A stretch of 1,045 nucleotides of DNA, taken from NCBI RefSeq assembly GCF_003334385.1, contig NZ_QOWN01000132.1; one strand, given 5' to 3'. This stretch comes from Escherichia coli. GTDB taxonomy: Bacteria > Pseudomonadota > Gammaproteobacteria > Enterobacterales > Enterobacteriaceae. The notes under the pieces are model-generated. The model did no database searches. It was not told where the DNA came from and saw only the letters and a list, made by a program, of their open reading frames with translations. A program made the translations under genes and the position numbers. Shown here in pieces: positions 1 to 1,045 of this stretch; position 1 is the stretch's first letter, and each line of letters starts with the position of its first letter.

Positions 1-401
1 GGCCACCACACTTCGCTGGTGGCAGCTTTGATCAGGAAAACATAGCGCCCGCCTTTATCACGCATGGCACTGGCATGTTTCATGATGTAACGCATGCCGG
101 TGATGTATTGCCCCTCATGCTGACTGGCGCGGCTGTACGGGGGATTGCCAAAGGCAGCACCTTTAAGCTCCGCAAGACGTTCTGACCAGTCATGCGCCAG
201 CGCATTGTCTTCCGCCGTGTAATACGCGGCACATTTGGCGTTATCACCGTCAGTGAACAGATCCAGAACAAACGGACCAAACAAGGTGTTAATTCCCCAG
301 AAAATGTTGTCCGGCGTGCGCCACTGATCGCCCACTTCCTTCAGTTCATGGGCTGGTTTGTTCCGCAGTTCTACCAGCGCCTGGCAATATTTATTACTCA
401 T
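1..401 (-). CDS. dam: DNA N6-adenine methyltransferase, phage Dam family; N-terminal 133 aa only, the 3' end lies beyond window position 1
   Basis: Hand translation of the minus strand from the ATG at 401..399 gives MSNKYCQALVELRNKPAHELKEVGDQWRTPDNIFWGINTLFGPFVLDLFTDGDNAKCAAYYTAEDNALAHDWSERLAELKGAAFGNPPYSRASQHEGQYITGMRYIMKHASAMRDKGGRYVFLIKAATSEVWW..., with no stop down to position 1. The catalytic NPPY tetrapeptide is at 146..135 (AAT CCC CCG TAC). DQWRTP (W-x-TP) is at 329..312. The pattern LD-(x)n-NAK-x3-YYT-x-ED-x-L-(x)n-W-(x)n-NPPYS matches what I recall of the phage Dam family (Pfam PF05869 type). A G5 Shine-Dalgarno sits 4 nt upstream, and the start overlaps the upstream stop (TAATG). 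The ORF is absent from the supplied track because it is open at the window edge. Confidence 0.9.
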   Translation of the reverse strand, partial: MSNKYCQALVELRNKPAHELKEVGDQWRTPDNIFWGINTLFGPFVLDLFTDGDNAKCAAYYTAEDNALAHDWSERLAELKGAAFGNPPYSRASQHEGQYITGMRYIMKHASAMRDKGGRYVFLIKAATSEVWW

Positions 402-493
402 TAAGCCCCCACGTAAAAAGCATCCGCAATGTCTCCGGAAGTACACCCCGGATGGGCTTCAATGAATTTCTGAACTTCATTCAAAAGACTCAT
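401..493 (-). CDS. hypothetical 30-aa protein (micro-ORF), resembling the first two helices of a small winged-helix/HTH protein
   Basis: The minus-strand ORF from the ATG at 493..491 to the TAA at 403..401 encodes MSLLNEVQKFIEAHPGCTSGDIADAFYVGA*. An AGGGGG Shine-Dalgarno at 504..499 ends 5 nt before the ATG. The start lies 2 nt after the upstream TGA (GGGGGTGATCATG), and the stop overlaps the dam ATG (TAATG). It exactly fills the only gap between two confident genes. It is too short for compositional evidence, so coding status rests on the RBS and this coupled geometry. Confidence 0.5.
   Translation of the reverse strand: MSLLNEVQKFIEAHPGCTSGDIADAFYVGA
406..410 (-). promoter_or_regulatory. 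Shine-Dalgarno (GGGGG) for the Dam methyltransferase gene, embedded in the last codons of the micro-ORF
   Basis: The minus strand reads ...TAC GTG GGG GCT TAATG AGT. The G5 run ends 4 nt before the ATG at 401. The context (G5, short spacer, ATGAGT) is the same as at the micro-ORF start. Confidence 0.6.
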
Positions 494-495
494 GA

Positions 496-1045
496 TCACC
501 CCCTGAATCCTTCCGGGATCTGGCTGTAGTCCACGTTGTCGTAACTGGCTTTGAAGTACGGGTCCTCGCGTCTGGCTGCAGATACCGCAGGAACTTCCCA
601 GGATTCTTCGAAATGACGATCCGGACCAAAGAACGTCGACGCCTGCTTCACGAACTGGGTACCGGTATTTCCAGAGACACGCACCCAGGCGGCATAGCGT
701 TTCACACCGTCGAGCATGGTTTCGGGTGTCACACCTTCCCTGATACGGGCTTTCCAGGCTTTGAAGGCTGCTGACTTGGAATTGCCACCAGCACGTTTGG
801 GATACTCCTGCCAGGCCTGTTCAAATTCCGGTGAATATTCCTGTCGGGCAGAACGCGCTGGCGCAGACGCGTCAGCGGATGCATCAATAGTGTTTTTAGT
901 CTCCGTTGTAATCTCTGTAGTAATCTCTGTATTTGTATCAACATTCGGCGTACCCCCTGTTCCGTTATGACGTCGGGGGGTGTTCCGTTTTAACGTAATA
1001 GCTGTATCGCTGATTGCATTATTGCTGTTACTTTCTGGCGAAACA
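496..1045 (-). CDS. phage early-operon protein, C-terminal 182 aa (5' end beyond window); low-complexity linker plus conserved C-terminal domain; tentatively a replication-initiator (O-like) or replication-associated protein
   Basis: The track lists this ORF as 496..732 starting with M, but that codon is GTG (732..730) and the frame stays open upstream to the window end. Hand translation: ...VSPESNSNNAISDTAITLKRNTPRRHNGTGGTPNVDTNTEITTEITTETKNTIDASADASAPARSARQEYSPEFEQAWQEYPKRAGGNSKSAAFKAWKARIREGVTPETMLDGVKRYAAWVRVSGNTGTQFVKQASTFFGPDRHFEESWEVPAVSAARREDPYFKASYDNVDYSQIPEGFRG* (TGA at 498..496). I recall the FExxWxxYPKRxGxxxKxxAxKAWxxR block as recurrent in C-terminal domains of phage replication-region proteins. 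The functional label is inference from that recollection and from synteny. Confidence 0.7.
   Translation of the reverse strand, partial: VSPESNSNNAISDTAITLKRNTPRRHNGTGGTPNVDTNTEITTEITTETKNTIDASADASAPARSARQEYSPEFEQAWQEYPKRAGGNSKSAAFKAWKARIREGVTPETMLDGVKRYAAWVRVSGNTGTQFVKQASTFFGPDRHFEESWEVPAVSAARREDPYFKASYDNVDYSQIPEGFRG
499..504 (-). promoter_or_regulatory. Shine-Dalgarno (AGGGGG) for the 30-aa ORF, embedded in the last codons of the upstream gene
   Basis: The minus strand reads ...TTC AGG GGG TGA TC ATG AGT. The purine-rich G5 run ends 5 nt before the ATG at 493. Confidence 0.55.
908..931. repeat. perfect 12-bp tandem duplication, gtaatctctgta x2 on the plus strand, with a degenerate third unit at 896-907
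   Basis: Positions 908-919 and 920-931 are identical base for base. Unit 896-907 (ttagtctccgtt) matches at 8 of 12 positions. The repeat is in frame on the minus strand and encodes TEIT-TEIT within ...NTEITTEITTETK... Confidence 0.9.
958..989. repeat. 9-bp direct repeat tgttccgtt (958-966 and 981-989), 23 bp centre to centre
   Basis: Both copies are exact. They are preceded by C5 (953-957) and G6 (975-980) respectively and are separated by atGACGTC, which contains a 6-bp palindrome at 969-974. The 23-bp offset is not a multiple of 3, so the two copies are read in different codon phases of the minus-strand CDS (NGT versus KRNT context). Confidence 0.85.

What the first reader, a model, noticed from the sequence alone, without database searches (positions are those of the whole stretch)
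899..989. Iteron-like array of five same-orientation ACRGAR cores inside the linker-coding part of the upstream gene: candidate embedded replication origin
On the minus strand the hexamer ACRGAR occurs five times in one orientation. Plus-strand YTCYGT copies are at 901-906, 913-918, 925-930, 960-965 and 983-988, with spacings of 12, 12, 35 and 23 bp, all near multiples of about 11.7 bp. A hexamer with two 2-fold degenerate positions is expected about once per kb per strand. Here there are five copies in 88 bp, and I spotted none elsewhere in the window by eye. The array lies in the low-complexity linker between protein domains and next to an AT-rich stretch (about 986-1035, roughly 36% GC by hand count, versus about half for the window). 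Phage lambda places its origin iterons and an AT-rich segment inside the O gene at the inter-domain linker. This could be the same architecture with unrelated repeat sequences.
Basis: partly seen in the sequence, partly recalled or inferred. Interest (0 to 1): 0.6.

Follow-up and report, generated by a model that had tools for sequence, protein, structure and literature searches.

The report
Replication origin inside prophage initiator gene
The flagged repeats are very likely the replication origin of an E. coli prophage, written inside the gene for its own initiator protein as in phage lambda, and one part of it is a 12-base repeat that phages of very different bacteria keep almost unchanged.

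Summary
The hexamer count alone is not beyond chance: 23 of 200 shuffles give an equal cluster for some similar motif. The five copies also mix two different repeats.

On the coding (minus) strand the region holds:
- Three 22-23-bp iterons with a TACGTT-NN-AACGKA dyad core, at window 975-997, 953-974 and 932-952. The third is degenerate.
- A tandem 12-mer array, (TACAGAGATTAC)2 plus AACGGAGACTAA, at 896-931.

Both lie in the disordered linker of a 327-aa winged-helix replication initiator (PHROG 270).

Comparative evidence supports an embedded origin:
- In 58 of 61 relatives from many phyla, the 100 nt upstream of the 12-mers repeat with period 22/23 or 44/45.
- Iteron sequence changes along with the N-terminal domain.
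- The iterons are read in different reading frames.
- The 12-mer element is nearly invariant across phyla, always on the coding strand, sometimes in another frame, and it is the local GC minimum.
- Among 39 E. coli alleles, no third-codon position varies in iterons plus 12-mers (0/34), against 91/219 elsewhere.

Origin activity itself is untested.

The parts
496..1045 (-). 3' two thirds (about aa 146-327) of a 327-aa phage replication initiator. The gene runs off the window's right end. The full gene is L001:6496-7479(-) in E. coli NCTC9112.
   Evidence: Frame translation. Full gene and RefSeq annotation 'replication protein'. PHROG 270 'replication initiation protein', E=2.6e-77. AlphaFold2 model: aa 1-142 is a confident winged-helix domain and aa 146-249 is disordered.
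975..997 (-). Iteron I1: TACGTTAAAACGGAACACCCCCC, with dyad core TACGTT-AA-AACGGA.
   Evidence: 16-nt direct repeat at 23-bp spacing. It matches its own reverse strand with 3 mismatches, which shows the dyad. It is homologous in position and sequence to the TACGTTnnAACGTA iterons of Serratia, Yersinia, Xenorhabdus and Acinetobacter-phage relatives. It is read as TLKRNT, a different frame from I2.
953..974 (-). Iteron I2: GACGTCATAACGGAACAGGGGG.
   Evidence: It is read as RRHNGT, shifted by one frame relative to I1 because 23 is not a multiple of 3. Only 4 of 66 iteron positions vary among 39 E. coli alleles.
932..952 (-). Degenerate iteron I3 (TACGCCGAATGTTG), 22 bp after I2. It ends in the conserved leader GATACAAA (932-939) that abuts the 12-mers.
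   Evidence: It aligns position for position with the last iteron plus GAGACGTA or AAGACAAA leader of the relatives. The leader consensus AGACAAA is conserved in 60 non-redundant loci although it was not used to select them.
896..931 (-). 12-mer array: TACAGAGATTAC TACAGAGATTAC AACGGAGACTAA, encoding TEITTEITTETK. It is the probable DNA unwinding or single-strand recognition element.
   Evidence: TRF. GC minimum of the region and of the family. In the 82 family loci, 152 of 169 coding-strand matches lie in the linker and only 7 matches lie on the other strand. Found in at least 120 viral contigs and 115 isolated phages, nearly always inside initiator genes. Read in another frame in 20 of 152 cases. 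Synonymous-codon bias. 0 of 36 positions vary among 39 alleles, while copy number varies from 1.7 to 4.7.
998..1045 (-). Pre-iteron linker (...SPESNSNNAISDTAI). It is variable and not part of the conserved origin core.
   Evidence: 7 of 56 positions vary among E. coli alleles, against 0 of 36 in the 12-mers. It differs in length and sequence among homologues. GC is 0.40-0.43.
860..895 (-). Post-array linker and mosaic junction. Similarity to SfV, mEp460 and many Stx phages, which share only the C-terminal domain, stops at window 890.
   Evidence: Megablast hits cover window 1-890 only. SfV orf39 has a different N-terminal domain and different repeats upstream of the shared C-terminal domain.

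Best explanation
Window 896-997 (minus strand) is the replication origin of a lambdoid/CPS-53-like E. coli prophage, embedded in the disordered linker-coding part of the phage's own initiator gene.

Proposed mechanism, all inferred by analogy:
1. Dimers of the initiator's N-terminal winged-helix domain bind the three 22-23-bp iterons, whose core is the dyad TACGTT-NN-AACGKA.
2. The resulting nucleoprotein complex destabilises the adjoining 12-mer array (TACAGAGAWTAC)n. This array is A-rich on the coding strand and is the local GC minimum.
3. The initiator may hold one strand of that array sequence-specifically, as plasmid Rep proteins hold the DUE 13-mers and as lambda O binds its AT-rich single strand.
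4. The replicative helicase is then brought in through the exchangeable C-terminal domain.

Shown here:
- The anatomy of the region.
- DNA-level purifying selection on both repeat classes.
- A family-wide 22/23-bp iteron period.
- Iteron sequence that changes with the N-terminal domain.
- Cross-phylum conservation, fixed strand and fixed position of the 12-mer element.

Not shown: protein binding, melting, helicase loading and origin firing.
For: 1. Gene identity: PHROG 270 initiator; confident winged-helix N-terminal domain followed by a disordered linker.
2. The iterons are not peptide repeats. I1 and I2 are 23 bp apart and are read in different frames. In Acinetobacter phage YMC-13-01-C62 the same 23-nt unit is read in three frames.
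3. In 58 of 61 non-redundant homologues, the 100 nt upstream of the 12-mers self-align best at lag 22/23 or 44/45. 25 of these reach at least 0.55 identity, against 0 of the N-domain control segments.
4. Iteron sequence changes clade by clade together with the presumed recognition helix. It also differs between the four N-domain types found in enteric phages.
5. blastn finds the Acinetobacter phages only over window 891-997, at 74% identity, although the proteins are homologous throughout.
6. 12-mer element: 152 coding-strand hits in the linker, 17 elsewhere and 7 on the reverse strand in 281 kb. It has a conserved, unselected leader and second unit. In the second unit Glu is GAG in 34 of 40 cases against 167 of 420 in the N-domains, and Thr is ACA/ACT in 82 of 87 against 222 of 421. 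It occurs in at least 120 viral contigs in three N-domain clusters and in 115 phages of many genera, almost all under initiator genes.
7. Among 39 E. coli alleles, third-codon positions vary at 0 of 34 sites in iterons plus 12-mers and at 91 of 219 elsewhere, p=1e-7.
8. Across 60 loci the 12-mers show a GC trough of about 10 points and an A>T skew, next to GC-enriched iterons (for this locus).
9. No other closely spaced direct-repeat cluster exists in the prophage's 6.5-kb early region.
10. [quoted passage not shown]
Against: - No binding, melting or replication data exist for this initiator family in the literature I could search.
- This allele has only two good iterons plus one degenerate one. 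Its own autocorrelation is weak (best lag 15, identity 0.42).
- Low diversity in the centre of the gene could partly reflect recent recombination rather than selection.
- The loci in the codon and period tests are not phylogenetically independent.
- The 12-mers are only 33% GC, not extremely AT-rich. Their strict sequence conservation goes beyond what a passive unwinding element needs, so their exact role is uncertain.
- In this prophage no helicase or helicase-loader gene follows the initiator.
Confidence: 0.75

Rival explanations
1. The repeats are only a consequence of a low-complexity, slippage-prone protein linker ((TEIT)n and neighbours) and have no function as DNA.
For: The array encodes TEITTEITTE in a disordered linker. 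12-mer copy number varies from 1.7 to 4.7 among near-identical alleles, as expected for slippage. Most 12-mers (132 of 152) are in the TEIT frame. The hexamer statistic alone is not significant.
Against: The iterons are read in different frames. 20 of 152 12-mers are read in other frames, for example as YRDY. Synonymous positions are fixed. A 36-44-nt stretch stays 88-97% identical between phages of Staphylococcus, Bacillus, Acinetobacter, Xanthomonas and Synechococcus, while N-domains are only 42-50% identical as proteins between such groups in the family studied.
Confidence: 0.04
2. The conserved 12-mer block is mainly a recombination joint. It would be a shared stretch of homology that lets N-terminal (origin-specific) and C-terminal (helicase-specific) modules be exchanged between phages, and would not be a working part of the origin.
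For: The same 12-mers sit between at least three N-domain clusters and several C-domain types: Phg_2220_C, DnaB_2 and the window's type. Similarity to SfV and Stx phages ends at window 890, next to the array.
Against: Exchange between phages of one host range does not explain near-identity across phyla. It also does not explain the fixed 8-9-nt distance from the last iteron half-site with a conserved leader, or the GC trough and strand skew. SfV has the same C-domain but different 12-bp-period repeats. A joint role and an origin role are not mutually exclusive.
Confidence: 0.08
3. The iterons are initiator binding sites used for autoregulation or copy control (an operator or handcuffing site inside the gene), or the conserved block acts at the mRNA level. 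The true origin would lie elsewhere in the prophage.
For: Initiator binding sites often double as regulatory sites in iteron plasmids (general knowledge; PMC10797057 for the Rep systems). The element always has the same orientation as the gene, which is also what an RNA element would show.
Against: No other iteron-like cluster exists in the early region. There is no Rfam match and no significant fold: z=-0.96, and the 12-mers are predicted unpaired. The layout of iterons followed by a low-GC repeat matches known origins (PMC7466680, PMC6316719).
Confidence: 0.1

Closest known systems
Phage lambda ori inside gene O (and Stx phages 933W and P27)
   Same: The origin lies in the middle of the initiator gene. 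It has direct repeats with internal dyad symmetry spaced about 20-24 bp start to start, bound by the N-terminal domain. A low-GC tract follows on the downstream side in the direction of transcription. The linker is tolerated as protein, and the C-terminal domain recruits the helicase (PMC7466680; lambda coordinates).
   Different: There is no detectable sequence homology: Pfam Phage_rep_O matches lambda O but not this protein. The iteron sequence is different. There are two to three iterons instead of four to six. Lambda's AT-rich tract is not a 12-mer array, and its resemblance to the family consensus is not significant (p=0.06). No P-like loader gene follows here.
Bacillus phage SPP1 oriL inside gene 38 (origin-binding protein gp38)
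   Same: Direct repeats plus an AT-rich DUE lie within the gene of the origin-binding protein that binds them (PMC6316719). Relatives of the window's protein are annotated 'DnaD-like' or 'replisome organizer and ori-binding protein'.
   Different: SPP1 has a second origin and a dedicated loader and helicase (gp39, gp40). I did not compare SPP1 sequences. No Pfam DnaB_2 domain is found in the window's protein.
DUE 13-mer repeats of iteron plasmids (RK2 oriV with TrfA, F with RepE)
   Same: Short tandem repeats next to the iterons form the unwinding element. They are essential in sequence, not just in composition. The winged-helix initiator binds them strand-specifically as ssDNA (PMC10797057). 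This is the best available model for why the 12-mers are conserved in sequence.
   Different: The plasmid origins are intergenic and their Rep proteins have two winged-helix domains (Rep_3 type). The 13-mers differ between replicons, whereas this 12-mer is nearly the same across phyla. ssDNA binding was not tested here.
PHROG 270 and DnaD-like phage initiators (Acinetobacter Obolenskvirus gp23, Bacillus BtCS33 and phIS3501, Stx-phage 'O' variants, mEp460 'primosomal protein I')
   Same: Same protein family or sister families. Same linker layout of clade-specific iterons followed by the (TACAGAGAWTAC)n element.
   Different: None of these has a mapped origin in the literature I could search, so they give comparative support but no functional support.

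Membership tests
Origin embedded in the initiator gene (lambda ori/O architecture) | The repeats lie inside the initiator ORF, in the segment between the DNA-binding domain and the C-terminal domain | tested here: met
   The repeats span codons about 162-196 of 327. The AlphaFold2 model has pLDDT >90 for aa 1-142 and <50 over much of aa 146-232 (block means 47-51 from aa 151).
Origin embedded in the initiator gene (lambda ori/O architecture) | Two or more direct repeats spaced about two helical turns apart, each with internal dyad symmetry | tested here: met
   I1, I2 and I3 are 23 and 22 bp apart. The core is TACGTT-NN-AACGKA. The family-wide period is 22/23 in 58 of 61 loci. Only two copies are well conserved in this allele.
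Origin embedded in the initiator gene (lambda ori/O architecture) | Iteron sequence co-varies with the N-terminal DNA-binding domain | tested here: met
   Each clade has its own iteron core along with its own helix sequence. Four N-domain types in enteric phages carry four different repeat types. This is qualitative; no formal covariation statistic was computed.
Origin embedded in the initiator gene (lambda ori/O architecture) | An easily melted, low-GC segment flanks the iterons | tested here: met
   The GC minimum of 0.333 is at window 880-939. The family-wide trough is about 10 points with an A>T skew. Melting itself was not tested.
Origin embedded in the initiator gene (lambda ori/O architecture) | The initiator binds the repeats and the segment supports autonomous replication | not testable with these tools
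   This needs EMSA or footprinting and a replication assay.
Lambda O protein family (Pfam PF04492 Phage_rep_O) | Sequence match to the Phage_rep_O N-terminal domain | tested here: not met
   There is no Pfam hit except a sub-threshold HTH_36 match (13.7 bits against a cut-off of 25). Lambda O scores 123 bits in the same search.
PHROG 270 replication initiation proteins | Full-length profile match | tested here: met
   E=2.6e-77 over aa 2-326.
DnaD-like helicase loaders / replisome organizers | Winged-helix N-terminal domain plus a DnaB_2-type C-terminal domain | tested here: inconclusive
   The model is a winged helix. Foldseek against the PDB gives only generic matches, none at E<=0.001, with the DnaD N-terminal domain 2v79 at rank 14. 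There is no Pfam DnaB_2 hit. PHROG 1701 'DnaD-like helicase loader' matches aa 182-304 at 1.3e-37.
Iteron-plasmid Rep origins (Rep_3 with DUE 13-mers) | An initiator with two winged-helix domains, and an intergenic origin | tested here: not met
   There is a single winged-helix domain of about 140 aa and no Rep_3 match. The origin is intragenic.

The most novel reading that the evidence does not exclude
The 12-mer array (TACAGAGAWTAC)n with its AGACAAA leader is a previously undescribed, sequence-specific origin element. It is shared by a very large superfamily of phage and prophage winged-helix initiators across Proteobacteria, Firmicutes, Cyanobacteria, Chloroflexota and others, whatever the iteron sequence, the C-terminal domain or the host. 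It would be the site where a conserved part of the initiator grips one DNA strand to open the origin. In that sense it would be a phage counterpart of DnaA-trios or plasmid DUE 13-mers, but one that is nearly universal and overlaid on a protein-coding linker.
Probability: 0.35. Interest if true: 0.8.

Novelty: new member of a known kind. Interest (0 to 1): 0.55.

Why it matters
This initiator type is present in 222 of 5,426 complete E. coli genomes. The family was found in 320 bacterial species. Its relatives include initiators of Stx-converting phages, where phage replication drives toxin production (PMC7466680), and of Acinetobacter, Bacillus and Staphylococcus phages.

Knowing the origin gives a cis-acting target for studying or blocking prophage replication. 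It also gives a handle for building phage-derived replicons.

The cross-phylum 12-mer is a simple sequence marker that could locate origins in thousands of unannotated phage genomes. It is also a clean case of one DNA stretch carrying two codes at once, protein linker and origin. If it is bound as single-stranded DNA, it would extend the initiator-ssDNA origin-opening model from DnaA and plasmid Rep proteins to phage O/DnaD-like initiators.

Tried and rejected
1. It is rejected because a motif-agnostic shuffle test gives 23 of 200, and the five copies split into a 12-mer array and 23-bp iterons.
2. The AT-rich stretch at 986-1035 as the unwinding element. It is rejected because it is the most variable linker segment, it is not conserved in homologues, and it is not the GC minimum.
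3. Host DnaA boxes or a Dam (GATC) cluster at the origin. There are none in or near the repeats, and counts are at chance level.
4. A known RNA family or a stable single-strand structure. There is no Rfam match at E<=1, and the fold z-score is -0.96.
5. Homology of the 12-mer element to lambda's AT-rich tract. The local alignment is not significant (p=0.06), so I keep it only as a positional analogy.
6. Solved-structure relatives. Sequence searches find only weak GntR-type HTH matches. Foldseek finds only generic winged helices.
7. Literature searches by sequence string and by keywords found no description of this origin or of the 12-mer. The main review of phage replication modules (Weigel and Seitz 2006) is not in the library, so prior description cannot be excluded.
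8. Two papers opened as leads were irrelevant: an A. baumannii plasmid origin and Francisella phage KIRK.

Full report
**What the window is.** All genes are on the minus strand. They are a phage N6-adenine methyltransferase (window about 1-401), a short remnant ORF (401-499), and from 496 to the right edge the last two thirds of a 327-aa protein.

The window is 99.9% identical to a prophage of E. coli NCTC9112. There the full gene (L001:6496-7479, minus) is annotated 'replication protein'. It sits in a lambdoid/CPS-53-like early region: CI-like ymfK, Cro-like ymfT, ymfL, Rha, two small ORFs, the initiator, Dam, a LexA-family gene, RusA, KilA-N, DUF968 and Q.

The protein matches PHROG 270 'replication initiation protein' over its whole length (E=2.6e-77). 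It has no Pfam or NCBIfam family apart from a sub-threshold HTH_36 hit at aa 81-109. An AlphaFold2 model built on 18 homologues gives a confident winged-helix domain for aa 1-142 and a disordered chain from aa 146. Foldseek finds only generic winged helices, with the DnaD N-terminal domain far down the list.

**Checking the observation.** YTCYGT occurs exactly five times, all on the + strand, at the stated coordinates, and nowhere else. A cluster of at least five same-strand hits within 90 bp, for some hexamer with two R/Y positions, appears in 23 of 200 dinucleotide shuffles. The hexamer count alone is therefore not evidence.

The five copies are also not one repeat. Three come from a 12-bp tandem repeat. 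Two come from a 16-nt direct repeat 23 bp apart.

**Anatomy on the coding strand.** The region reads:
- TACGTTAAAACGGAACACCCCCC (I1, window 975-997)
- GACGTCATAACGGAACAGGGGG (I2, 953-974)
- TACGCCGAATGTTGATACAAA (I3, 932-952, degenerate)
- TACAGAGATTAC TACAGAGATTAC AACGGAGACTAA (896-931)

I1 and I2 share the exact 9-mer AACGGAACA. They are translated in different frames (TLKRNT and RRHNGT), so they are not a peptide repeat. The core is a dyad, TACGTT-NN-AACGKA.

**Relatives.** A sensitive blastn of the N-terminal and linker part against isolated phages hit Acinetobacter Obolenskvirus phages only across window 891-997, at 74% identity. Their initiator is nevertheless homologous over the whole N-terminal domain (45% in the alignment; 47% by tblastn).

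That phage's linker has three 23/22-bp units, GTACCACCCTCCTACGTTAGAAA and two variants. They are read in three frames (YHPPTLES, TTLLRSN, VPPHTLKRN). They are followed by ATACAGAGACTACTACAGAGAATACTACAGAT.

A profile of the N-terminal domain found the family in 320 species. I examined 80 loci from Enterobacterales, Acinetobacter, many Firmicutes, Cyanobacteria, Chloroflexota, Atribacterota and Rickettsiales.

In 58 of 61 non-redundant loci, the 100 nt upstream of the 12-mers self-align best at lag 22/23 or 44/45. 25 of these reach at least 0.55 identity, against none of the control segments in the N-terminal domain. Iteron sequence differs by clade and tracks the sequence of the presumed recognition helix. 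Examples are TACGTTnnAACGT, TACAAAATTTTGT, GTCCCGAAATTTCGGG and GGCGCCACAGCGCC, and most are palindromic.

**The 12-mer element.** TACAGAGATTAC with up to 2 mismatches gives 152 coding-strand hits within 400 nt downstream of the N-terminal domain, in 68 of 82 loci. There are 17 coding-strand hits elsewhere and 7 on the opposite strand, in 281 kb.

The consensus is G..AGACAAA|TACAGAGAWTAC|TACAGAGAWTAC. The leader and the second unit are conserved although they were not used for selection. The distance from the last iteron half-site is fixed.

Twenty of the 152 hits are read in another frame, for example VYRDYLEITTK in a Planococcaceae locus and TENNYRDYHRDYP in a Lachnospiraceae locus. In the second unit Glu is GAG in 34 of 40 cases, against 167 of 420 in the N-domains of the same genes. 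Thr is ACA or ACT in 82 of 87 cases, against 222 of 421.

The exact pattern TACAGAGAWTACWACAGAGAWTAC occurs in at least 120 viral contigs. The ORFs that hold it fall into three N-terminal-domain clusters that BLAST does not link. All have the initiator layout of an N-terminal domain, then the repeat-bearing linker, then a variable C-terminal domain, and each has its own upstream repeats.

A 44-nt probe hits 115 isolated phages of Acinetobacter, Bacillus, Klebsiella, Staphylococcus, Escherichia/Stx, Erwinia, Xanthomonas, Burkholderia, Pseudomonas and Synechococcus. Almost every hit lies under a gene annotated as replication initiator, O-like, DnaD or primosomal protein. More distant members keep degenerate versions (Staphylococcus phage 96, TP21-L, a Listeria phage).

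Across 60 loci the element is a GC trough of about 10 points with a strong A>T skew on the coding strand, next to iterons of above-average GC. In this locus it is the GC minimum of the 2.1 kb profiled.

Among 81 genes (39 unique alleles) carrying this N-terminal domain, the share of variable sites is:
- 18% in the N-terminal domain
- 12.5% in the pre-iteron linker
- 6% in the iterons
- 0% in the 12-mers
- 20% downstream

Third-codon positions vary at 0 of 34 sites in iterons plus 12-mers and at 91 of 219 sites elsewhere (p=1e-7). The 12-mer copy number varies from 1.7 to 4.7. Part of the low central diversity could come from recombination history, and the alleles are not independent, so I treat this as supporting evidence and not as proof.

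**Interpretation.** The layout has four parts: the gene of a winged-helix initiator, dyad-symmetric 22-23-bp iterons specific to the N-terminal domain, a low-GC repeat immediately downstream, and an exchangeable C-terminal domain. This is the layout of lambda ori in gene O and of SPP1 oriL in gene 38 (PMC7466680, PMC6316719).

The protein is not a member of the lambda O Pfam family. The iterons are unrelated to lambda's. The resemblance of the 12-mer consensus to lambda's AT-rich tract is not significant.

The strict sequence conservation of the 12-mers, together with their asymmetry and their position, fits best with the DUE repeats of iteron plasmids. Those repeats are bound strand-specifically as ssDNA by the winged-helix Rep protein (PMC10797057). 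That step is inference.

I found no DnaA boxes, GATC cluster, Rfam family, stable single-strand structure or second repeat cluster in the prophage's early region.

**Rivals.** A pure protein-linker reading is contradicted by the frame changes and by the synonymous-site conservation. A recombination-joint role for the 12-mers is compatible with the mosaic junction at window 890 and with the several N- and C-domain combinations. It does not explain the cross-phylum identity or the fixed geometry, and it may coexist with an origin role. A purely regulatory or RNA role cannot be excluded without experiments.

**Novelty.** An origin inside an initiator gene is a known kind of thing, so this is a new, uncharacterised member. 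I found no description of the 12-mer element in the searchable literature. The key review is not in the library, so I rate the claim that it is new as possible and not established.

Noticed in passing
window 401-499 (and the join to the Dam gene at about 401): The short ORF between the initiator and the Dam gene is annotated in RefSeq as an incomplete pseudogene. Many other E. coli genomes match the window in two pieces spanning 1,441-1,453 bp, with a PerC-family regulator (yfdN) at this place. The window's prophage therefore seems to have lost about 400 bp of that gene.
   Followed up: partly
window 496-600; L164-L166 and L050 (alignment A2, columns 880-1000): Alleles with the same N-terminal domain, iterons and most of the C-terminal domain differ in the last 35-45 residues. 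The window's tail (...SQIPEGFRG, shared with SfV) is followed by no loader gene. In L164-L166 a different C-terminal tail is followed by an 'ATP-binding protein' gene, possibly a DnaC-like loader; L050 shares HNSQ2209's tail but its downstream gene was not examined. The extreme C-terminus may set the helicase-loading partner.
   Followed up: partly
L292:2190-2380 (phage SfV orf39, minus strand): SfV's initiator shares the window's C-terminal domain but has a fourth type of N-terminal domain and its own iterons (GGTGCAGGAGATTCAC-like, about five copies). Downstream of them is a different 12-bp-period repeat, GAACCAGTCAAW, in three to four copies. The layout 'iterons followed by a 12-bp-period array' may be more general than the TACAGAGAWTAC sequence.
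   Followed up: no
window 975-980 (C6 run between I1 and I2); locus L040: The spacer between iterons 1 and 2 is a run of six C. One viral contig (L040) has seven C, which frameshifts the initiator. This may be a slippage-prone tract or a sequencing error.
   Followed up: no
protein P0018 (alignment A1): One homologue from a JGI metagenome has a DnaA N-terminal domain (PF11638) fused in front of this initiator N-terminal domain, and its source names it 'chromosomal replication initiation ATPase DnaA'. This hints at recruitment of host helicase or DnaA partners.
   Followed up: no
Escherichia phage bumzen MN850635.1:81422-81460 (hit H255): This is the only listed hit of the 44-nt 12-mer probe that is not under an initiator gene. 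It lies under 'membrane protein | repeat_region' in an 87-kb phage.
   Followed up: no
window 862-877: The imperfect palindrome CGCAGACGCGTCAGCG lies in the part encoding ADASADASA. Some alleles carry a 6-bp deletion just downstream of it (ASADASARSA instead of ASADASAPARSA).
   Followed up: no
L001:7476-7775 (upstream of the window): A 99-aa ORF overlaps the initiator's start codon, and a similar-sized ORF (99-108 aa) directly precedes the initiator in NCTC9112, P15-385 and HNSQ2209 but is absent in OkiPb01715. It was not examined and could be a second replication or regulatory component.
   Followed up: no
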